A stretch of 64,000 nt of DNA from Chrysomallon squamiferum (GCA_012295275.1 CM022674.1:4216001-4280000), one strand, 5' to 3'; positions 4,421 through 62,937 are shown, counted from the stretch's first letter. Notes: generated by a model from the letters alone, not told the origin. Made by a program: numbers and translations.

Positions 4421-5609
4421 TCACAGAGCCGTGCGTGGCCCCGACGAAAGGTCAAGGTCAAGGTCAAGGTCGTCAAACAACGTACCGTCAGACTGCGTAC
4501 CGGAATCGACGCGAAAGGCCGCCGAGGCGTTGTTCAGTTTGTTGGAGCAGGCGGCGCCGCTTTTGGCCAGCATGCTCTGTCGCACGTTGCGCTCCGGGTG
4601 GAGCACGATGATGTGGAGCTTGGGCGCGAACATGCAGACGAGGACGACGGTGGCGCTGAGGCTGATGGAGAAGCACATCGTCGCCTGGCGCATCTGGATG
4701 TTGCTGGCCGTCGTGAAGTAGATGACGACGAAGGCGAGCCAGATGATGCACGTCGTGTACATCGTGAAGCCGATGTACTTGGACTCGTTGAACGCCTCCG
4801 GGATTTTCCGCGTCAGCACGGCGTACACCGTGCACACGACGACCAGCAGGATCGGGTAGCTGAATCCGATCATGTACGAGCTGCCCAGCGCCGATCTGCA
4901 CACGAGCTGGTGATCGTCCCGGTTGGCGAAGTAGGACATGGCTTCGGGCGGACTGACCAGCAGCCAGATGAGTCCTATGACGAGCTGCAGCCCCACCAAA
5001 GCGCCGCATATGATCAGCTGCGACTCCGGGCTGATGAATTTGGGTCGCTTCACCGTGCGCTTGCCCGCTCGGAATATCCTCGAGATGCGGTTGGTCTTCG
5101 TGAGGATCGCAGAGTAGCAGATCGTGAAGCAGAGTCCCATCCCCATCTTCAGGATGCCGCACAGAACTAACGAAGGTCTGGACACGAGGACGAAGGTCGT
5201 TCCGTAGCACAGCATGATCCCGACCAGCAGGACGAAGCTGAGCTCTCTGCCCGAAGCCTTCACGACCGGAGTCTCCTTGTACACGATGAACACGAACATG
5301 ACGAGGCTGGAAGCGCATATCCCCAGGGAAGCGAACGCCATGGCTCCTATGGCGATCCCGTTCGAGTATTGGAGGTATCGCTTCGGAATCTCGATGCAGC
5401 GCGTCTTGGTGAACGACGGAAGCGTGCCCATGGGACACTCGACGCATGCGTTCTTCGTCGGGAGGTACTCGTACTGGTTGCACGCCTCGCACGTCCAGCA
5501 GCACGGGTTGCCTAGGAACGGCTTCCGGCGCTCGTAGAACTTGCAGGGTCTTGTTGCACATCGAGGAAGGGTGTTCGGGTTCGTCCTGGCGGAACACCAG
5601 AGGCGAAAT
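4421..5609 (-). CDS. mtt: exon H: cysteine-rich domain + complete 7TM + C-tail ending ...SSGPRTAL*; contains a +1 frameshift within 5549-5555
   Basis: tttttcag|ATT acceptor. ISPLVFRQDEPEHPSSMC is in one frame; PCKFYERR..CCWTCEAC..CVECPMGTLP..TPVVKASGRELS..KTNRISRIF..RKIPEAFNESKYIGFTMYTTCIIWLAF..PKLHIIVLHPERN is in the next. The 3' end may instead be spliced at 4486. Confidence 0.93.
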
Positions 5610-5844
5610 CTGAAAAAAAAGAAAATAAAAAGAAAGAAGAAATGAAAAGAGAAAATAAATTCAGAATTATTTTTATTTTTTTTTTTTTTTTTTTAAAAAA
5701 ATATTAAAATGAAATTACATTTCGGTAGCGACAGATTCCAAAAAACCGGATTTTGAAATAAGGTAAATTTCAAAAACAAACAAAAAAAAAAAAAAAAAAT
5801 AAAAAAAATAAAAAAAAAAAAAAAGAAAGAAAAGAAAATTGATA

Positions 5845-6235
5845 CGTTTCTATGAAATTAGGTTTAGGTCAGGTACCAAAATCTTTTTAACATGAATAAA
5901 ATCTGAAAAAAAAAAAAAAAACAAAAAAAAAAAAAAACTAAATAACTGATAAGGTATTCTATGAAATTTTGTTTACGTCAGGTACTAATACCGAATTTTT
6001 AACATAAACTAAAATCTGAATTAAAAAAACAACCAAAAAACAACAAAAACAACTAAATAATTGATAAGGCATTCTATGAAAATTTTTGTTTACGTCAGGT
6101 ACTAATACCGAATTTTGACATAAGCTAAATCTGAAAAAAAAAAAAAAAAAGTAGGAAAGAAATAATAAAAAGGAGAGCTTTCTAAGAAATTAGCTTTACG
6201 TCGTGTATTAACACTGGATTTTGACACAAACTGAA
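5845..6235. repeat. ~110-bp tandem repeat (3-4 copies) just upstream of exon H
   Basis: ttcta(t/a)gaaa...gtcaggtac...aaatctgaa recurs at ~5848, 5957, 6072 and 6180. Confidence 0.85.
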
Positions 6236-6982: not shown

Positions 6983-7032
<50 letters not shown>

Positions 7033-7039
7033 ATGTTGT

Positions 7040-7196
7040 TTGTTTTTTTGTAAGTTTATTTATACATACATACGTTGATACATACTGCTGTACTTACACA
7101 TAGATATATACATATACATTATATATATAGCTATATAAATGTGTGTACGTATAGAAAAGTATGTGTTATTATTACAACTGTATCCACAGATATTAT

Positions 7197-7242
<46 letters not shown>

Positions 7243-7345
7243 GTTACTACTCCTACTGCTACTTCTACTATTACTATACCACTACTACTGCCTTTACTAC
7301 TACCACTATTACTACTACCATATTATTACTACTAATGTCACTACT
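7040..7345. repeat. left arm of long-range inverted repeat (partner 32650-32945)
   Basis: atatagctatataaatgtgtgtacgtatagaaaagtatgtgttattattaca at ~7125-7175 is nearly the reverse complement of 32810-32860, and the flanks also align. Confidence 0.88.
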
Positions 7346-8037
7346 ACTACTACTACTGTCACTACTACTACTACTAATGTCACTACTACTACTACTACTG
7401 CTACTGCTACTACTACTATTACTATACTACTACTCTACAACTACTACTACAGCTACTACTTCTATTACTACTAATAATAATCACATGTCGCAATCTATAT
7501 AGAAGGTCTCATGCATTTTTTTTCGAAACACGATCTATTGTTCTTTTCTTCACCGTGTAGCTGTTAGTTTTGATTCCTAAACGTTCTGTGTTTATTTCAA
7601 GCGGAAGTCTGTCCCATAAATTCTGCCATTCTAAACCAATTTCACATACCACAGAACAGATTGTTATAAAAGACGTCAATTAAATAATCAATTATTTAAA
7701 CAAAAAAAAAGAGTACAATTATAATCGATCATTGTTAATGCTGAGTTAATAAAATTAAAGAAAAATAAATTAATTTGAAAATCGCTGTCCACAAATTCAT
7801 CATTTTATCAGAATGTTAATTATATTTATATTAGTTCATGCCATAGTTTTGTTAGATAACAAAAGATAACGCAATCTCCCGTAGCAACGACGGCATTAAT
7901 AACTGCAACAGCAGCATGGGCAGCAACTATAATAATAATAATTGCTACCATCACGACTACTACAACAACAACTGCATTTTTTTTCATACTCAACAATTTC
8001 TCCGTTACTGCTGTTATTACTATTACTATTATTATTA

Positions 8038-22224: not shown

Positions 22225-22366
22225 CTCTGGCATTTGTTTTGAGGAGGTTTTTCACGATCTGATCATAGGCCTCATCTGGTGCTACACCTGAGTCTTTTAA
22301 CAACGTTTCTGTAGCAGCCTTGCAAATCCCGTTCTCATTGAGTAACTTAGACAGCTCGTTAAACCC
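22225..22366 (-). CDS. mtt: exon C (VFT): GFNELSKLLNENGICKAATETLLKDSGVAPDEAYDQIVKNLLKTNAR(G)
   Basis: ttacag|GGG acceptor, AGAG|gtaata donor; 142 nt, phase 0 to 1. Confidence 0.93.
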
Positions 22367-24429: not shown

Positions 24430-25238
24430 TACCGAATTTGATGAACAACAATAAACAAAGTTCATGATGTACAACAGATAATACCATTATGTATTAAATA
24501 ATAAGTATAAGGTATTCATTTTAACAGTAGACACACCAGAGAGGTAACATATTTAAGAACTGAATTTGACGTAGTACAAACACAAATAATACAAAACACA
24601 GATAATAACAATGTGCATTAAATACTTAAATAACGAATTTGGCCTACATTCTTTATAAAATCACATGCGTAAGACAACAGTACGAAATACTGAATTTGAA
24701 GTATACCAGACAATAACAATGTACGTTAAACACTAAAAATGAAGCATTGTTAAATATTCAAATACTGTATTTTGTAAAATCACGTACCAGACAAAATAAA
24801 CTTGAAGTATACAATATACATTAAACACCAAATACGAAGCATGCCTGTTAAACACTCAAATACTGAATTTGACGTACTTTTTGTAAAACCACACACATCA
24901 GTCAGTAGTTGCGAAATACTGAATTTGAAGTATACCAGACAATAACAATATACATTAAATACTAAATATAAAGCATTCAAATACTGAATTTGACGTGCTT
25001 TTTGTACTTTTTGTAAAACCACATACGTCAGTCAGTAGTTGCGAAATACTGAACTTGAAGTATACCAGACAATAACAATATACGTTAAACACTAAATATG
25101 AAGCATGCCTGTTAAATATTCAAATACTGAATCTGACGTACTTTTTGTAAAATCACGTAAACATTTAGTCAAAATCACGTAATGAAATACTGAATTTGAC
25201 GTTACCTTCAGTCAGTAATGAAATGAATTCGACGTTAC
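24430..25238. repeat. degenerate ~130-bp tandem repeat abutting the exon B donor
   Basis: Recurrent aaatactgaatttga(a/c)gta, ccagacaataacaata and tcagtcagtagttgcg blocks. Confidence 0.85.
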
Positions 25239-25409
25239 CTGTATTCCGTAACTGGATTCTTCGTAGACCAGGGACACGTACGTCCATTTCAGCATCTTGA
25301 CGAGTTCCACGATGGCCTGCGCCTGGTTCACGTCAGAGGGGATGGTTCTGAGAAAATAGGGAAATCTCTCTCTGTTACTGAGCACGGAACTTGTGGAAAA
25401 GAAACTAAT
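25239..25409 (-). CDS. mtt: exon B (VFT ligand pocket): ISFFSTSSVLSNRERFPYFLRTIPSDVNQAQAIVELVKMLKWTYVSLVYEESSYGIQ
   Basis: ctttcag|ATT acceptor, CAG|gtaacg donor; 171 nt, phase 0-0; continues IPQ|IS..ST..LS...F.YF.RT.P.D. Not in the ORF track; read from the sequence. Confidence 0.95.
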
Positions 25410-27775
25410 CTGAAAGTGCGAAGAAGAGCTGAGGTTACTTTTAGTTTTACTTACGAATGGATTTTTAGCGATATATATTTTTTTTTTACCTTTTAATTGT
25501 TTTTTTTAGATGTTAGACGTTAGACGTAATTATTATTATTATTATTATTATAATTATTATTATTATTATTACTAGTAGTAGTAGTAGCAGTAGTAGTAGT
25601 AGTAATAATAGTAATAGTAATAGTAGTATTATTAATAATAAGAATAATAAGAACGATAATCGTGATATCAAACAAACAAACAAACAAACAAATAAATAAA
25701 TAAATAAAAATATTAAGATTAATCTTCTATTATTAGAATGCATTCAAAACTAATTGATGCTAAAATATAGAATAAAAAAAAAAAAAAAAAACACTCAGTC
25801 GAAATTCTCTCTATCATAGTTAAGAATATTATATATATATATAACCGAAAAGATAAATAAAAAAAAAAAAAAAAATAATAATAATAAAAAAAAAGCAATA
25901 ATAATAATATATGAAATAATGTTATCACAATTATGCTTCTTGGTTGATTAGCTTGCATATGTTTGTATTAATTTATTATACTGAAAGTGTTCATTACAAC
26001 GCCGCTAATCTTTAGATTTTTCTAAGGAAGGTATTATCTACGACTCTACGTCATTGTTCGTTGAAAACTGATATTGACTGAACGTCGCATTTCGTTGTCG
26101 CAAACTCCCTTTACGTCGCATTTTGTTAACGTAAGCAGGCGATGTGTCGCAGTTTGTTTGTGCAGTTGTTGTTGTTGCTGCTTTAGCTTAACGTTAAATA
26201 TAAAGTCTTACTTCATTTTATTAGTTAAGAAGTAGATTTTTCTACAAAAAAAAAAAAAACAAACAAACAACATATTTTTTCGTCTTATTTACAAAATTAA
26301 TTAAAATTCAACCTTCATTATTAGAATTATTTTCTTCTATTTTATTTCGTTTTTTTGTTTGTTTTTTTCTAATAATAAATTATATGTTAACTTCTAGATT
26401 CATACTATTTTTGGTTTTCACTTAAAAACATACACACACAGACAGATAGATACCTACGTACGTACGCACACACACACACACATACACGTACATACATCCA
26501 TACGTAACAAATGCACACATACTCATCCATACATTGTATACGTTATATATGATATATGAGAGGTTATTCAGCCAAATACAATTTCATAGACTCTTCCTTT
26601 ACGATCTACGCAAATCTGCAAATGTTAATAGAATATTTACGCAAATCGCTGGACTTACGTCTATTTTTCTTTAAAAATTACGGGCTTATATGAGACATTT
26701 ATACGTCTAAATAAAAGGTTTAGTGAAATGACGACTAACAAATCCAATGATAACATAATTGCAGTATCAGTAGCGAAAAATTAGAGTCGTTATTTATTCC
26801 GAGGAAAACACGAGATCGATAACGCAGTTAGTTGTATTTGCTACGTTTGAAATTTAACTACTCACGTGAAAATTGTTCTTTGTTATAAGACGTAAGAGAT
26901 TAATTCCAGGTCAATCCATTGGGAGTTGCTTATTAGGACACAGAATATTACAAAATGCTGAAAGCGTGGTAGTTAGGAAATAAAAAAACAAATACAAAAA
27001 CAAATTAAAAAACAAACAAATAAAACAAAAACAGAAGATTAGACGAAATAAGGATTACATAAAAAAAAAAAAATTAATATTAAAGGTTATATCAAAAATA
27101 AAGATGTCAGATTAAATGAATTAAGGATTATAGAAAAACAAATATACGTGTGGGTAAATTAAGTAAATTAAAGATTATAAGCCAAAATTAAAAACTGCAA
27201 AGACAAATCTAATTACGATTACAAGAAAATAAAGATTGCTTAGATTAAACGAAACGAGAATTATATGAAAATGAAGAAAAAAAGCGTAGAACGAATTAAA
27301 GACTATACGGAAATAAAGACGACACGGTTATAAAAAAAAGATAACTAGGAATTATGTGGATTTTTGCTAAGGCTGAGAACAACTTTATTTTTAATGACTG
27401 TTCTAGACGGGATAAATTTCTAAATGATTGTTAGGGACCTGCTACTTAACATCACTTCTTTGTAAAGAAGAAATTTTATTTCTTTCGGATTGTAAACGAT
27501 AAAAGCCTGTATGAATTAAAAACTGAAGCCTGTGGCATAATAATTAACAAACTCGAAGAATAAAACGCGATTTTTATTGCAGTCGCTGGATAAGTGCGCT
27601 TATTGTAAAATAAAACGTAACACAATAACTCCAAGAATTGTCCTCTGTAGCGAAAGATTCTATTTTTGCGGGATCTGTGAATAATAAAAGTTTCTCTTAA
27701 CAAAAACCCCGTTAATGACGAAGCTAGACGGAAGAAGAATCACGTTTTTATTGAACTTCGAGATAGCGGAGGTTA

Positions 27776-27811
<36 letters not shown>

Positions 27812-28105
27812 TCTTCTTTGCGGTCGATATAAAAAAAAAAAAAAAAAAAAAATGTCGACAGCGGTTATGTCGAAGACAGTGTCATAAAAATGATAAAGGA
27901 AACAACGGGAGGGAATTCAAAACAAACTAATCATGATATCTGAACCGTGAAAGTGTTTCAGCCTGATCCCTGGGTACTCATATCGTGGTGACAAAAAATA
28001 ACAAATTCTCTTTTGTAACTATAACGAGCCTGGTTCATATGTACCCAAAGTACAAACGATAAAGTTAGTACAGTTGAGTCGGAGGGGGGGGAAAGAGAGA
28101 GAGAG

Positions 28106-28199
<94 letters not shown>

Positions 28200-28342
28200 A
28201 TTCAGGCATGAAGAGAGATAGAGAAACAGTGACATACAGAGCTTGTGAGATAGACAATAGAGAGAGAGAGAGAGAAAGAGAGACTGAAATGCAGATGGAC
28301 AGATAGATATGCAAAGAGATAGATAAAGATATATATATATAT

Positions 28343-28452
28343 CATCTAAAACCCATTAAAAGGTAAAAAAAAATATATCGCTAAAAATCCATTCGTAAGT
28401 AAAACTAAAAGTAACCTCAGCTCTTCTTCGCACTTTCAGATAAGTTTCTTTT
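28343..28452. repeat. inverted copy of exon B 3' splice-site region (partner 25397-25512)
   Basis: 28379-28441 (cgctaaaaatcc...gcactttcagat) is the exact reverse complement of 25408-25470. The match continues with one mismatch into the exon and with small indels outward. Confidence 0.95.
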
Positions 28453-28454
28453 TT

Positions 28455-28570
28455 ATATATTTTTTATTTTTTTATTTTTTTATCCTTCTTTTTGCCTGCC
28501 TTTTCAGACGGTCTATCTCACTGTATATATATATCTCTCTCTGTATCATTCTGTTTATCTCTCTATTTAT

Positions 28571-28601
<31 letters not shown>

Positions 28602-28649
28602 TTATATATATATATATATATATATCTATTTATTCTGTCTATCTGTCTG

Positions 28650-28706
<57 letters not shown>

Positions 28707-28782
28707 ATATCTATCTATCTTTATATATATGTATATAGATAGAGAGACAGACAGAATAAATAGAAAGATAAACAGACTGACA

Positions 28783-28814
<32 letters not shown>

Positions 28815-28860
28815 AATAGACAATGAGACAAATCGCCTGAGAAGGCAGACAAAAAGAAGG

Positions 28861-28908
<48 letters not shown>
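28455..28908. repeat. fold-back (palindromic) element, arms ~28455-28610 and ~28720-28908
   Basis: tatccttctttttgcctgccttttcagacggtctatctcactg vs reverse complement tatccttctttttgtctgccttctcaggcgatttgtctcattg; T-rich and poly-A ends; (TATC)n/(TA)n centre. Confidence 0.9.
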
Positions 28909-28910
<2 letters not shown>

Positions 28911-29293
28911 GTGTCGTCACCATGACTACAAAAGAGAATTAACTCTACGTTGTCCAAGACAAATGGGAACCGCCTCGCTCTTATTAACGCCGAAATCCAA
29001 AGTAGCCAGATAAATTCCGCCGAGCTCTCTTACGTCACAGTGTCGACACGGCGGTCATTTATTCCGTTATTTCAATTTTCTTTTCTAAATTAGATGTCGC
29101 GTGTTTCGTTCGGGGTTCGCGTGGCCAGGCCAGAGTCGTGACATGATTGAAATATGATCAATAGAGAGGTGAAGAGCCAAAGTGAAAACCGTGATTCCAA
29201 CCTGATGGTGAATTATGTTTTTTTTTTTATTTAATGTTTTTTGTTTTTTTTATAATTTTTTTCTGTCCCTTCGATTCAAATTTTCTTTTCTTG

Positions 29294-29571
<278 letters not shown>

Positions 29572-31690: not shown

Positions 31691-32649
31691 ATGGATGTCT
31701 ATATATATAAGCACCCGCATTCCCGCTCATACACATGTATATATATATGTATATATATATATATAGGTATATTATTTATGTATGTGTGTTCTTATGCACA
31801 CACACACACACACACACATACACACACACACACACATATATATTTTGTATTTATGTCAAATCTCAATATGGTTTCTACCTAGATATCTTCCTTTACTGTG
31901 ATCAATATCAAATTTTCAGCAGATATTAAATATCAGTAATAATCTCTCAAAGGGCTTGTCATCTATTTTACGAGTAGTAAATTTCTCCTGTGGTTATTGA
32001 CTGATTGGTCATCGAGGTCACTTCAGTGGTCAGTTCGTGACAGCGATGTTGCTGGACAGTGTCCAAGATGACACAGGTTTTAACAGATGGCTGAAGTCAT
32101 GCAGTGCATTTTGCTTTCTTTTCGACTAGCCAAGAATTTTTTAGTTTTGTTTCCGTTTATCTGTTTGTGTTGCTGTTTGTCTGTCTGTGACGTTCTCCCT
32201 TCTATCTGTATGTCCATCCAGCTGTTAACTTGTAAAACTGAATTTGGGAAAATTTGTGCAGTCTCTTTAACTTTTATAATTCTCTCTTTAATTCGTGTAC
32301 ATACAATCATACATACAAACACATAGGCATAAACGCACTCTCGTAGAAAAGTCATACAAACGCACACACGCAAGCACGCGTACACACAAAAAATATACAA
32401 TCAGAATGACTGATGGAAATCAAAATAAAATAAAATTAAGTGTTTTTGTACCAGCATATGTTAGATAATCCCACCCACCACCAAAAAAACCCAACAAATT
32501 CAAACGAAACACAACAAAAAAACAACAACAACACAAAACAACATCTGTTATTATTACTGCAATAATAGTAGAGGTAGTAGTAGTGGTAGTACTAGTAGTA
32601 GCAGCCGTTGCGGAAGACGTACCAAGACTACTAATGGTTGTGGTGGTAG

Positions 32650-32945
32650 TATTAGTGACATTAGTAGTAATAGTATGGTAGTATTAACAGTCGTAGTAGT
32701 AACTGCAGTAGTAGTGGTATAGTAATAGTAGTAGTAGCAGTAGGAGAAGTAACAGTAGTTGTAGTAGTATAGTAGCAGCAGTAGTAGTAATAATATCAGT
32801 GGTAACAGCTGTAATAATAACACATACTTTTCTATACGTACACATATTTATATAGCTATATATATAAAATGTATATGTATGTATCTATGTATAAGTATTG
32901 CAGTATGTATGAATGTATGTATGTATACATAAACTTACAAAATAA
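32650..32945. repeat. right arm of long-range inverted repeat (partner 7040-7345)
   Basis: Manual alignment over ~300 bp, including non-microsatellite sequence. Confidence 0.88.
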
Positions 32946-33786
32946 ACAAAAACAAAATAATCATAATAATAGTGGCAGTAGTACTTGCAGTAATAGTTGT
33001 AGTAATAGTAACAATATTAGCAGCAGTAACAGTTGAAATACTAGTAATAACAGAAGAAGAAAAATCATAAGAAGAAAATAAAAACGTGAAGAAAGAAACT
33101 AAGATGACGTAACAACTCAATTGCGGTTAACGTCTACAAGAAACTCTCTGGTATCGTTATCCACTGGTTTTCGTCTCAGCTTTTGTCCATTTGACATTTT
33201 CATCTAATCAGCAAATTCCCAATTTCTATTTCCCGGCAATGCGACCCGTGAAATAGTCTATTAATATAATTGAAATCGGATGCACCATTGGTTTCCAATA
33301 TACAGCTTTAGCTTCACCTTTGCGATAAATCGATGGTGTAACGTAGTGTGGGTTTTATGCATTTTGTGTTTTTCTTCGTGTTATTGTGTGGTGTTTTTTC
33401 TTTTTTTATTACTATTGCTGCTATTATTTTTGTTGTTGTCGTTATTATTGCTTATTATTTATTTATTTATTATGTATTTATTTATTTATTCGTTTATTTA
33501 TTTATTTATTATTTATTATTATTGTTGTTGTAGTTGTTGTTGTAGTTGTAGTCATGTTTTTGCTGCTGCTGTTGCTGCTGCTGTTGTTGCTGTTGTTGAC
33601 TACTACCCTTGCTGCTGCTGCTGCTGTTCTTGCTATCGTTGTTGTCGTTGTTAATATCCTCTGTTTGTTTTCCTCAGTTCCTCACATTATTCATTCTTCT
33701 TTCATTTATCCATCTCATTCAAACCTTTGTCCATTCCTTCAGTTATTGCTTTCCTCGTTCATTCTGTGTTTCCAATATACGATTAT

Positions 33787-47154: not shown

Positions 47155-47911
47155 AAAAATAAAATAAAAAATAAAATAAATAAATAAAATAAAAACATAA
47201 AAAATAAATAATAAAAGTAAATAAATAAATAAATCAATCAATAAATAAAAAAAAAAAAAAATAAATGAAATAAGTTAATAAATAAAAAAAAAAAAAAAAA
47301 AAAATAAAAAAAAAAAAAAAAAAAATAAAATAAAATAAAATAAAATAAATAAATAAATAAAAAACATAAAAATAAATAACCAAAATTTTTTTTAAAATCG
47401 CTTCACCTACATTTTTACAATGCACATTCTCTTCCACTTTTTAGAAAACTATTTCCTGAAGCTCGTACAATCGTAGGAAACCAAATTAAGTTAATTACTA
47501 GAAAAAAAAAGAAGAAAGAAAAACTTCTTTCTTAAGTATTACTATCTTAAAACTAATCATATCTGAAGTATTCACAGCACTTCAGATGACAGCTGCGTTG
47601 GTAAGTTTCACTTCTAGATGCCAGCCTAGAATCAACAATGATTTATAAGGATTTGCTAACGTTTTCTCTGTTTCTAGCTACTCATTTTGAAATTCCGTTT
47701 AATTGCGATCTCTACAGGTTTGGAGAGGCGCTAACATGGAGTTAATGGTCGTAATGGACCCTCGTAAAAAAATGTTGATGATGAGCATACGGATGTAGGT
47801 AATGAACGATTTAGTCTCACCTTGGTTTCGTTTAATCCGAGTTTGCCACAGTAATTATATAATACAGCAACATTAAAAATAATGACAGAGAGAGAGAGAG
47901 GGGAAGGGAGG

Positions 47912-48005
<94 letters not shown>

Positions 48006-48037
48006 CAGAGAGACAGAGAGAGAGAGACAGAGAGAGA

Positions 48038-48256
48038 TATGTATGTATGTATGTTTGAATGTGTATATGCATATTTATTACATTATTATTTTTAAATATC
48101 TTTATTGTTATATAATAATTCATTGTTACATAATGTCTGTAGGAAAATATTCTCTTTAAATATTCTGCGCAAACATTGAGATATACAGGTGAACTAATTC
48201 AATTACCAGAATTACATAGCACGTACATTTTCAAATAGATTTGTAAGTGTAATAAT

Positions 48257-48287
<31 letters not shown>

Positions 48288-48382
48288 TAAATAAATAAAT
48301 AAGAGAGAAAAAAAAAAAGAGAGAGAGAAAAATCGTTATACCCCCCAAAAATTAAATAAATTAAAAAAAAAAAAAAAAAAAA

Positions 48383-49796: not shown

Positions 49797-49858
<62 letters not shown>

Positions 49859-50110
49859 TCTCTTTTTTTTTTTTTTACTTATTTATATTTATTTTTATTA
49901 CATTTACAAATTTATTTGAAAATTTACGTGTTATGTAATTCTCGTAATTAACTTAGGTCACCTGTCTATCTCAATTTATGCGCAGAATATTTAAAGAGAA
50001 CATTTTCCTACAGACATTATGTAACAATAAATTATTATATAATAATAAAAATATTTTAAAATAATAATAGTAATACACATGCATACATACATAGATACAT
50101 ACATACATAC
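48038..50110. repeat. inverted repeat pair, arms ~48038-48260 and ~49893-50110 (possible long-TIR/fold-back element)
   Basis: attgttacataatgtctgtaggaaaa.ttctctttaaatattctgcgca... is present in opposite orientations; about 15 differences in a ~160-nt core by hand count. Flanked outward by (AG)n on the left and (CT)n on the right. Confidence 0.92.
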
Positions 50111-50175
50111 ATACATGCATGCATACATACACACAAACACACACACACACACACATATATATATATTACTTTCTT

Positions 50176-50292
<117 letters not shown>

Positions 50293-55544: not shown

Positions 55545-55599
55545 AAGAGATAGACAGACAGACATATATATATATATATAGATATATATATATATATAT

Positions 55600-55760
55600 A
55601 TAGAGACAGACAGAGAGATAGACAGACAGAAAGACAGATATATATGCATACACACATACATTCACAGATAGAGACACGCAGATATAAACACATACGCACA
55701 CATACACACACGCACACACACATATATTGGCAAAGATTTAAATAAATATATATATGTGTG

Positions 55761-55792
<32 letters not shown>

Positions 55793-56184
55793 AACACAGA
55801 GAGAGAGAGATATATTGGGGGGGAAATTTAAAGACAGAAGAGAAATGATATACAGGGTGTCCCAGAAAACAACACCATGAAGATATTTATATATATATAT
55901 ATATAAAAATATATAATAATAATCATAACAAATGCTCAAATTGAGAGCATTGATACATACTTCAATTCTCTTTATAAAACTGTTTTTTAGTTGAGGGTTT
56001 CAGACAGACAGAATTTATGTGTATCTAAATAAAAATCTTCATGGTGAGTGACTTCTGGGACACCCTATATATGCATACATACATTCATAGATAGAGACAC
56101 ACAGATATATACAAACACACACACACACACATATATACACACATATTGCAAAGATTTAAATAAATAAATTCAAAACAACGATAT

Positions 56185-56230
<46 letters not shown>

Positions 56231-56241
56231 CAAAGAGAACG

Positions 56242-56284
<43 letters not shown>

Positions 56285-56430
56285 TATAAACAGTGACCGA
56301 GACACAGAGAGAGAGAGAGAGACAGAGACAGAGAGATAGACAGACAGAGAGACAGATATATATGCATACACACACACATTCACAGATAGAGACACATATA
56401 TATATTGGCAAAGATATAAATAAATAAATC
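55600..56430. repeat. three degenerate direct copies of a microsatellite-rich unit (tatatgcatac..cattcacagatagagacac..tattggcaaagat) surrounding the MITE
   Basis: Unit recurs at ~55640, ~56068 and ~56358. Confidence 0.7.
55853..56067. mobile_element. non-autonomous Tc1/mariner-type MITE (~215 bp)
   Basis: TA+CAGGGTGTCCCAGAA..CACCATGAAGAT at the left end and ATCTTCATGGTG..TTCTGGGACACCCT(A)+TA at the right: imperfect TIRs with a TA target-site duplication and no ORF. Confidence 0.8.
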
Positions 56431-56759
56431 GAAATAACGTCTGACGCAATTTCACAGCATTATGTAATATATTAAAACACGTTTTTTTTTTGTAAACCTT
56501 ACACATTTCGTATAATGTATCTAACACACAAAACCCGTTTTCTTCCACAATGCATGTAATTATGTTACGGGCTAATATTCTTTAAGAGGAATGCCACTCA
56601 GGAAAATGGTGAAAAGTTATTTCAAGCGAAAAATAATAACGCTTGAGGGTCTTCAAAATCAACACACTGCAGAATCTGAAGAAGAGCTTTACTTCGTCTG
56701 TAATGGTGGTATTTATGAAGAAGAAAAAAAATGATGAGAATAAAACAACGAATATCTGT

Positions 56760-59390
<2,631 letters not shown>

Positions 59391-62165: not shown

Positions 62166-62508
62166 AAAAAAAAAAGAAATGCTTTCAATTCCCTGCAGTC
62201 TGTTTTTCCCGTTGCATTACTGAAACGAAGGTTATAAAAGCCTGCGAACAACTCTTCGTTTTGTTTATCGCCGTCGTTTTATATCGGTGAAGAAATTAGC
62301 TGTAAAAACAGTCGTCATTAAAGGCACTGAGACAATTTCCTACCGCTAATTAAAGTTAATGTCGTCATTAGTGTTTAGTGGAATAAAGAATGAAGCAGCA
62401 GCACATACATAAATGATAAGAATGACGTATGGTTCGTTAGATGCTAACAGGTAGTCGTTATGTCCTGCACTTGTTAACACAAGTTTTTCTAACGTGTCCC
62501 TACGTCTT

Positions 62509-62937
62509 TGATCTCTGTATGAATAAACACAAAATGTAGTCATGTTTGTAACGTACGTGCATTCTTAATAGGCTGTCCCTGTGTGTTGATCTCTGTATGA
62601 ATAAACACAAAATGTAGTCGTGTTTGTAACGCACGTGCATTCTTAATAGTCTGTGTCTTGATCTCTGTATGAATGAACACAAAATGTAGTCGTGTTTGTA
62701 ACGTACGTGCATTCTTAATAGTCTGTGTCTTGATCTCTGTATGAATGAACACAAAATGTAGTCGTGTTTGTAACGTACGTGCATTCTTAATAGTCTGTGA
62801 CTTGATCTCTGTATGAATGAACACAAAATGTAGTCGTGTTTGTAACGTACGTGCATTCTTAATATCCTGTCCCTGTGTCTTGATAGGTATATGAATAAAC
62901 ACAAAATGTAGTCGTGTTGATCTCTGTATGAATGAAA
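62509..62937. repeat. 72-bp minisatellite, ~5.5 copies
   Basis: atctctgtatgaat.aacacaaaatgtagtcgtgtttgtaacgtacgtgcattcttaat recurs at 62511, 62589, 62661, 62733 and 62805, plus partial copies. Confidence 0.95.

What the first reader, a model, noticed from the sequence alone, without database searches (positions are those of the whole stretch)
25397..28452. Intronic antisense copy of the 3' splice site and first codons of the ligand-pocket exon: candidate editing-complementary sequence or splice switch
Seen: 28343-28452 is the reverse complement of 25397-25512. The 63-nt non-repetitive core has no substitutions, and a single mismatch falls at the third base of the first codon. In the pre-mRNA this copy lies ~2.9 kb upstream. 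It could pair over the likely branch-point region, pyrimidine tract, acceptor AG and the first 13 exon bases (ATT AGT TTC TTT T, I-S-F-F). Established: intronic complementary sequences direct ADAR A-to-I recoding of neural receptors (e.g. the GRIA2 Q/R ECS), ADAR favours UAG context, and recoding is extensive in coleoid cephalopods. Inference: the duplex could recode AGT Ser to Gly (its A is in UAG context) or ATT Ile to Val beside the amino-acid-binding Thr. It could also edit or mask the acceptor. Exon B is 171 nt, phase 0-0, so skipping it would give an in-frame receptor lacking pocket residues. The core is less diverged than the other inverted pairs here, which suggests recent origin or maintenance.
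Basis: partly seen in the sequence, partly recalled or inferred. Interest (0 to 1): 0.82.

Follow-up and report, generated by a model that had tools for sequence, protein, structure and literature searches.

The report
Backwards splice-site copy in snail receptor
A snail glutamate-receptor-like gene carries, 2.8 kb upstream in the same intron, a real backwards copy of one exon's splice acceptor that is predicted to pair with it in the RNA, but the copy matches letters that other individuals still carry at that acceptor, so it is likely a recent DNA-copying accident rather than a tuned editing switch, and its effect on splicing is untested.

Summary
In detail: 28343-28452 is the reverse complement of 25397-25512 (69-nt exact run). 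Contigs of three public runs from two studies hold the copy, so it is no assembly artefact. The host is a mangetout/mXR-type class C GPCR of a snail whose nearest named relative is Gigantopelta aegis, not a coleoid. A low-depth contig of a third run matches the copy distally too. The copy therefore matches a still-segregating allele, which points to recent origin (or conversion), not maintenance. Ser is invariant in 112 of 112 homologues; Ile-to-Val is the commonest residue; none of 90 homologue models lacks the exon. The one RNA run laid has no cover, so editing and skipping are untested. Best reading: a young templated inverted insertion, predicted to form a ~100-bp duplex with at most leaky effects. 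The scan noted similar copies in other genomes; human CHM and MANBA cases show such copies can force skipping. One loose end: no substitution in 154 nt among four carriers leaves a sweep open.

The parts
28343..28452 (+). Inverted intronic copy of the exon B acceptor region (about 97-103 intron bases plus the first 13 exon bases). In the minus-strand pre-mRNA it is antisense to the acceptor and is made 2.83 kb before it.
   Evidence: Alignment; held by contigs of X1, X2, X3
25397..25512 (-). Source: likely branch region (candidate A at 25435 or 25441; motif recalled), pyrimidine tract, acceptor AG (25411-25410) and exon bases 25409-25397
   Evidence: Sequence; predicted 97-bp helix with the copy; AG paired with probability 1.00 at equilibrium
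25239..25409 (-). Exon B, 171 nt, phase 0-0, 57 aa of the Venus-flytrap domain
   Evidence: Hits to mGluR structures, best E 2.2e-12; 57/57 identical to the Gigantopelta aegis protein
25407..25407 (-). The window's single core mismatch: a synonymous allele (Ile either way); X1 and X4 carry the copy's letter
28329..28342 (.). (TA)n tract at the left junction. The right junction is a T-run/TA-rich tract (28449-28483). Together they are the likely break site; microhomology about 3 nt on the left (with the X3 allele) and up to 4 T on the right.
   Evidence: Junction print-out; X3 loose end
28445..28899 (.). Older, decayed foldback abutting the copy (arms 28450-28624 and 28722-28894); context, shows earlier inversion-type events at the same spot
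58308..58463 (-). Upstream exon A (donor at 58308; its upper boundary is approximate); the 32.9-kb intron between it and exon B holds the copy
   Evidence: tblastn; translation
22225..22366 (-). Downstream exon C; a skip would join 58308 to 22366 in frame

Best explanation
The copy is likely a recent DNA-copying accident, a templated inverted insertion of about 110 bases from the acceptor 2.8 kb away into an AT-rich tract, that is predicted to pair with the acceptor in the pre-mRNA but likely has only a leaky, unselected effect on splicing and editing. Mechanism. (1) Inferred: a stalled or broken strand at the (TA)n/T tract near 28343 annealed by a few bases to the opposite strand near the exon B acceptor, copied about 110 nt, and returned. 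(2) Shown: the product matches, without substitution, acceptor letters found in other individuals. (3) Computed: in the finished RNA the two arms form a helix of about 97 bp that buries the AG. (4) Inferred: with a 2.8-kb loop, most transcripts commit to splicing before the helix forms. The minority that pair would be edited non-selectively, mostly at intronic As, or would skip exon B and give a dead receptor.
For: The copy equals a segregating allele: exon-linked contigs of X1 (depth 39) and X4 (depth 14) carry the copy's letter at 25407. An X3 contig joins the acceptor's own flank to copy-type distal letters, differing only in A-run length (depth 2.9). The junctions sit in TA/T tracts with short microhomology, next to an older foldback. 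The same intron has a second, purely intronic local inverted duplication (47886-48328/49829-50289, core 91%), and the window has several local tandem duplications. A random 113-nt source covers one of 8 acceptors in 667 of 37,710 placements (1.8%), so such events should recur across a scan, and one search lists 7 similar notes from other genomes. Exon B is under strong purifying selection: 4 of 4 exonic differences are synonymous, it is 57/57 identical to Gigantopelta, and 0 of 90 models lack it. Germline templated insertions with microhomology are described (PMC8421209 passages). Editing of inverted Alu pairs falls with distance from about 16% at 300-400 nt to a plateau near 1% (PMC526178 section).
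Against: At equilibrium the duplex wins by 97 kcal/mol and the AG is fully paired. Inverted duplications force skipping in CHM and MANBA, and a 220-297-nt reverse-complement insert does so in mouse Tbxt, so 'leaky' is an inference. The copy is present in all 4 haplotypes with cover and shows 0 substitutions over 154 nt. Coalescent P of that is 0.003-0.10 with theta from exon B synonymous sites and 0.08-0.24 with theta from all sites, which fits youth but also a sweep or constraint. No copy-less allele was seen. The microhomologies are short and lie in low-complexity DNA. No RNA evidence either way.
Confidence: 0.68

Rival explanations
1. Young accident with a real effect: the duplex masks the acceptor in a sizeable share of transcripts (directly, or through AG-to-IG editing). 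This lowers the dose of full-length receptor, and the allele rose to high frequency by drift or selection.
For: AG paired with probability 1.00 and a 97 kcal/mol gain. Human and mouse precedents; editing of acceptor AGs alters splicing (PMC5991522 passages). Copy in 4 of 4 covered haplotypes with no substitution in 154 nt while exon B nearby is polymorphic. X1 depth on the shared contig (74) against exon B (39) is nearer a homozygous than a heterozygous copy; weak, since contig depth is no copy number.
Against: Loop of 2.8 kb against 274 nt in CHM. In human genes, conserved complementary regions are depleted at active splice sites (PMC8052449 passage). The diversity test rests on 4 SNPs, and only X1 and X3 were laid on both arms. 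Exon B shows no relaxed constraint.
Confidence: 0.16
2. An older copy that is kept alike by gene conversion between the two arms, again without function.
For: The window's acceptor allele differs from the copy by 3 substitutions and 2 gaps, whereas X1, X3 and X4 match it where covered; conversion of the acceptor by the copy would give the same pattern.
Against: The copy's unduplicated left flank (28291-28342) also shows no substitution among carriers, which conversion between arms does not explain.
Confidence: 0.09
3. A selected editing-complementary sequence that directs site-specific recoding (Ser to Gly, Ile to Val or Met) of the ligand pocket.
For: Intronic complement to exon bases in the same pre-mRNA; the exonic As lie 10-13 nt inside the helix end and are predicted paired.
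Against: The host is a gastropod; Nautilus and Aplysia lack extensive recoding. Gly is never found: Ser in 112 of 112 motif matches; Val is the majority residue, 94 of 112. The UAG context is allele-specific. Only 13 of about 110 paired bases are exonic. A long substitution-free duplex favours non-selective editing (PMC526178 section; bulge-dependent selectivity recalled). The copy looks too young to have been tuned.
Confidence: 0.05
4. Assembly artefact.
For: The window has a 1-nt frame break in the last exon near 5551, so the assembly likely holds small errors.
Against: The left junction is spanned in X1, X2 and X3, and the right junction is seen in X3, in two studies.
Confidence: 0.01

Closest known systems
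Microhomology-mediated templated insertions (MMB-TI / MMBIR, FoSTeS; PMC8421209, passages read)
   Same: Short insertion copied from a nearby template in inverted orientation, short junction microhomology, carried as a germline variant.
   Different: The template is 2.8 kb away (the yeast events cited there lie within 100 bp) and happens to be a splice acceptor; the pre-insertion allele was not seen here.
Human CHM exon-12 and MANBA intragenic inverted duplications (PMC8756506 passages; PMC6549551 first part and passages)
   Same: Inverted copy that includes splice sites of the same gene, microhomology at junctions, predicted pre-mRNA hairpin.
   Different: Those are 1.75 kb and 13.1 kb, cover whole exons, have a short loop (274 nt in CHM), are private disease alleles and have observed skipping. 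This copy is 110 nt, covers only the acceptor, has a 2.8-kb loop, is shared by several individuals and has no RNA evidence.
GRIA2 Q/R-type editing-complementary sequences (recalled, not read here)
   Same: Intronic sequence complementary to exon bases of a neural-type receptor in one pre-mRNA.
   Different: Known ECSs are old, conserved and imperfect, pair mainly with the exon, and have a proven edited site. This one is young, near-perfect, pairs mainly with intron, and has no edited site shown.
Drosophila DmXR / mangetout (mtt) (PMC2695807 passages)
   Same: The host protein groups with proteins named mangetout, apart from the two Arg-motif mGluRs in the tree (100 support), and shares the (V/I)SFFSTS motif.
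   Different: That 2009 paper knew orthologues only from insects. Databases already label a Mytilus member 'metabotropic X receptor'. The ligand in snails is unknown.

Membership tests
ADAR editing-complementary sequence (GRIA2 Q/R type) | Intronic sequence complementary to the exonic target within one pre-mRNA | tested here: met
ADAR editing-complementary sequence (GRIA2 Q/R type) | A-to-I editing observed at the target | tested here: inconclusive
   RNA run X9 has no cover of exon B; all runs are contigs
ADAR editing-complementary sequence (GRIA2 Q/R type) | Conserved between species with compensatory changes | not testable with these tools
   No genome held; the metagenome scan gave one unrelated 40% locus; no relative's intron was obtainable
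ADAR editing-complementary sequence (GRIA2 Q/R type) | Imperfect duplex that selects one or few sites (feature recalled) | tested here: not met
   No substitution between arms over 25397-25426 in X1 and 25397-25475 in X4; the window's one core mismatch is an allele
ADAR editing-complementary sequence (GRIA2 Q/R type) | Recoding yields a distinct, tolerated protein variant | tested here: inconclusive
   Gly in 0 of 112 homologues; Val in 94 of 112, so tolerated but unlikely to be distinct
Templated inverted insertion (MMB-TI / FoSTeS) | Inserted sequence is an inverted copy of a unique nearby template | tested here: met
   (uniqueness tested within the window only)
Templated inverted insertion (MMB-TI / FoSTeS) | Microhomology at the junctions | tested here: inconclusive
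   About 3 nt on the left (with the X3 allele) and up to 4 T on the right, both in low-complexity DNA where chance matches are common
Templated inverted insertion (MMB-TI / FoSTeS) | Pre-insertion (empty) allele identifiable | tested here: inconclusive
   Flanks were largely skipped as repeats; no joint across the site in 4 runs
Skip-inducing intragenic inverted duplication (CHM/MANBA type) | Predicted hairpin buries a splice site | tested here: met
   AG paired with probability 1.00 at equilibrium
Skip-inducing intragenic inverted duplication (CHM/MANBA type) | Skipped transcript observed | tested here: inconclusive
   No RNA cover; 0 of 90 homologue models lack the exon, but these are other species
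mXR / mangetout receptors (host gene) | Groups with mangetout apart from glutamate-binding mGluRs | tested here: met
   FastTree, 20 rows, only two Arg-motif outgroups
mXR / mangetout receptors (host gene) | Diverged distal pocket (loss of the glutamate-binding Arg; position recalled) | tested here: inconclusive
   That exon was not found in the window; Gigantopelta and Haliotis have Ala in the motif where the two outgroups have Arg

The most novel reading that the evidence does not exclude
A splice-dampening element caught at birth: a copy younger than the alleles of the acceptor it masks has swept through a snail population because it turns down, by skipping or AG editing, an orphan amino-acid receptor. 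Individuals or populations with and without the copy would give a natural experiment on how long-range RNA duplexes and editing-complementary sequences arise from DNA-repair scars.
Probability: 0.08. Interest if true: 0.65.

Novelty: new member of a known kind. Interest (0 to 1): 0.22.

Why it matters
As an accident it is ordinary, but it is a clean example of the raw material from which RNA-structure regulators could evolve, and here population data date it: the copy matches an allele that still segregates. It also warns that window-specific alleles can create an apparent ADAR motif, and that a DNA allele in this exon (25257) would read as A-to-G editing without matched DNA. If RNA showed real skipping or a sweep, it would be a rare natural case of a new long-range splice regulator at its origin.

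Tried and rejected
No whole genome is held, so genome-wide copy number and the rate of such events could not be counted. RNA run X9 gave only a low-complexity hit and no cover of exon B; X6 did not cover the copy; neither is evidence of absence. The metagenome scan with the exon B peptide gave one 40% locus, not followed. Rfam over 25000-29300 gave 11 matches, all below gathering score; none lies on either arm. My first guess of a decapod host, from microsatellite richness, was dropped. The first tree had exon A out of frame and is replaced. Two Pfam scans failed on frame slips and were not rerun; domain calls rest. Literature searches for an inverted-duplication origin of an ECS (0 papers) and for mangetout in crustaceans (0 papers) were empty; one paper was not held; the search on ADAR duplex-end rules gave one irrelevant listing, so those rules are recalled. 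No supplements were read. Sequence and 'near' look-ups of earlier findings were empty.

Full report
OBSERVATION. Local alignment confirms that 28343-28452 is the reverse complement of 25397-25512, with three substitutions and two 3-nt gaps (self-BLASTN E 1.9e-41). The exact run is 69 nt, 25408-25476 = 28373-28441. After masking simple repeats (30% of the window), the next-longest exact inverted matches are 34 and 27 nt. A 25-nt core occurs twice in the window and in none of 100 shuffles. The source covers about 100 intron bases, the AG at 25411-25410 and the first 13 bases of a 171-nt phase 0-0 exon, 25239-25409.

HOST GENE AND ORGANISM. The exon matches mGluR structures (best E 2.2e-12). tblastn with the Haliotis protein maps eight exons on the minus strand between about 58460 and 4421. 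The last exon's best single-domain hits are molluscan: Haliotis 74%, Lottia 68%, Octopus 66%. A second search found an 86% relative that clusters with a Gigantopelta aegis protein. The window is 92% identical to that protein and sister to it with support 100, then to Haliotis (FastTree, 15 rows). The clade groups with proteins named mangetout, apart from the two Arg-motif mGluRs included. The host is thus an mXR/mangetout-type receptor of a gastropod. DmXR is an orphan receptor that keeps the amino-acid-binding residues and needs Thr176 (PMC2695807 passages). By recalled mGluR1 numbering, exon B holds the equivalents of T188, D208 and Y236, so skipping it would likely kill the receptor rather than tune it. 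Nautilus and Aplysia 'do not exhibit extensive recoding' (PMC8382921 passage); coleoids edit far more than other animals (PMC9068888 passages).

IS THE COPY REAL? Eleven runs were listed, all contigs, one on record as RNA. On 28196-28523 I laid X1, X2, X3 and X6. One contig spans 28291-28444 with no other letter in X1 (depth 74) and in X2 (depth 9). X3 covers it in two pieces with no substitution. X6 has no cover. The tool skipped both flanks as repeats, but an X3 contig laid on the acceptor continues into the copy's right flank. So 3 of 4 runs laid, from two studies, hold the copy, and it is not an assembly artefact.

THE MISMATCH IS AN ALLELE. On 25140-25528 I laid X1, X3, X4 and X9. The contigs that carry exon B in X1 (25207-25426, depth 39) and X4 (25207-25475, depth 14) both have the copy's letter at 25407. 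X3's row at that place comes from the copy's own contig and does not count. Codon 1 is then ATA, still Ile, and the Ser codon's A sits in AAG, not UAG. An 89-nt X3 contig joins the acceptor's own flank to distal letters that match the copy apart from A-run lengths, while differing from the window's acceptor by 2 letters and 4 gap positions (depth 2.9, so weaker). All four exonic differences seen (25257, 25266, 25395, 25407) are synonymous third positions, as expected for real alleles under purifying selection. The differences between arms in the window are therefore differences between acceptor alleles, and the copy matches an allele that still segregates. This indicates recent origin, or conversion between arms, not long maintenance. 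The allele at 25257 is T>C on the + strand in DNA and would mimic A-to-G editing.

BACKGROUND RATE AND ORIGIN. The copy sits between a (TA)n tract and a T/TA-rich tract, with about 3 nt and up to 4 nt of possible microhomology, and abuts an older 450-bp foldback. The same intron holds another local inverted duplication of purely intronic DNA, 47886-48328 and 49829-50289, with a 91% core (it could be a repeat-family pair, which I could not test without a genome). Local tandem duplications lie at about 5791-6235, 24618-25206, 55566-56439 and 62495-62918. A random 113-nt source in low-repeat DNA covers one of eight acceptors in 667 of 37,710 placements, 1.8% (one acceptor position approximate). 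Germline templated insertions with microhomology are described (PMC8421209 passages). The scan's notes list seven similar cases in other genomes (unchecked AI notes, used as leads only).

WHAT THE RNA WOULD DO. The arms alone give -155 kcal/mol, and the fold of 25230-28950 contains a 97-bp helix between them. In the ensemble of 25300-28560 the AG and A25409 are paired with probability 1.00 and A25406 with 0.93; forbidding the acceptor arm to pair costs 97 kcal/mol. These are equilibrium values at 37 C, without proteins or kinetics. For an effect: inverted duplications cause skipping in CHM (1,752 bp, 274-nt loop; PMC8756506 passages) and MANBA (13.1 kb; PMC6549551 first part and passages). A 220-297-nt reverse-complement insert flanking mouse Tbxt exon 6 induces skipping (PMC10901737 passages). 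Editing of acceptor AGs alters splicing (PMC5991522 passages), and inverted repeats can induce editing nearby (PMC4053975 abstract). Against a large effect: the loop is 2.8 kb, and editing of inverted Alu pairs falls from about 16% at 300-400 nt to a plateau near 1% with distance (PMC526178 passages and section 3 part 4). Conserved complementary regions are depleted at active splice sites (PMC8052449 passages), and exon B shows no relaxed constraint.

RECODING. The possible edits are Ile to Val, Ile to Met (ATA allele) and Ser to Gly, 10-13 nt from the helix end. Among 170 proteins held, 112 have the motif: Ser in 112, Val in 94, Ile in 18 (93 of the first 120; the other 27 were mostly truncated models). 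Ser aligns with Ala in mGluR5, four residues before the Thr. Of 162 proteins, 90 had both flanking anchors and none was shorter than the full spacing (85 at 119 residues), so no skip form is on record in relatives. RNA run X9 does not cover the exon: editing and skipping are untested.

RESULT AGAINST MY READING. The copy is in all four haplotypes with cover and shows no substitution over 154 nt, while exon B has four synonymous differences at about 37 sites among three haplotypes. The coalescent probability of no segregating site is 0.003 to 0.013 at the synonymous estimate, 0.05 to 0.10 at its lower bound, and 0.08 to 0.24 with an all-site estimate. A young insertion gives this pattern among carriers, but a young allele found in every carrier sampled could also have swept. 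The samples are few, not matched across both stretches, and contigs drop minor alleles.

VERDICT. A real, young, templated inverted copy over a splice acceptor: a new member of a known kind. Probabilities: unselected accident with leaky effects 0.68; substantial splice dampening 0.16; older converted copy 0.09; selected recoding ECS 0.05; artefact 0.01. Searches for a published inverted-duplication origin of an ECS and for editing in gastropods (four listings, none on this gene) found nothing on this locus; subscription papers and supplements were not seen. GRIA2 ECS properties, ADAR neighbour and duplex-end preferences, the branch-point motif and mGluR1 residue numbers are recalled.

Noticed in passing
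window 5545-5556 (minus strand, last exon 4421-5609): One extra base breaks the reading frame between two well-conserved stretches; the closest relative (P0163) reads through in frame. Likely an assembly error; if real, this allele is null and the intronic copy would matter less.
   Followed up: partly
window 47886-48328 and 49829-50289: Second local inverted duplication in the same 33-kb intron, 1.5 kb apart, complex core 91% identical; a possible intronic dsRNA and a matched control for the mutational process.
   Followed up: partly
window 28445-28899: Decayed foldback of about 450 bp directly abutting the copy, predicted to give about 150 bp of helix in the pre-mRNA; it could recruit ADAR beside the copy.
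   Followed up: partly
window 24618-25236: Imperfect tandem duplications just downstream of exon B's donor, including a second donor-like motif about 33 nt into the intron; X1 diverges from the window below 25207, and X1 and X4 have a 5-nt deletion at 25217.
   Followed up: no
window 5791-6148: About three 115-bp tandem units upstream of the last exon's acceptor, each with a T-rich tract ending in an acceptor-like motif; possible cryptic acceptors.
   Followed up: no
window 25257: DNA allele T>C on the + strand (A>G in the transcript, synonymous) in X1 and X4; it would be miscalled as RNA editing against this reference.
   Followed up: yes
window 4421-58463 (minus strand): The host gene belongs to a mangetout/mXR-type clade present across molluscs, an annelid and a nemertean, though a 2009 paper knew it only from insects; its ligand in snails is unknown.
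   Followed up: partly
window 62495-62918: Young tandem array with a 72-78-bp unit, about 91% identical.
   Followed up: no
window 7028-7434 and 32567-32963: Inverted pair 25 kb apart, 83% identical including microsatellite parts; probably a dispersed repeat.
   Followed up: no
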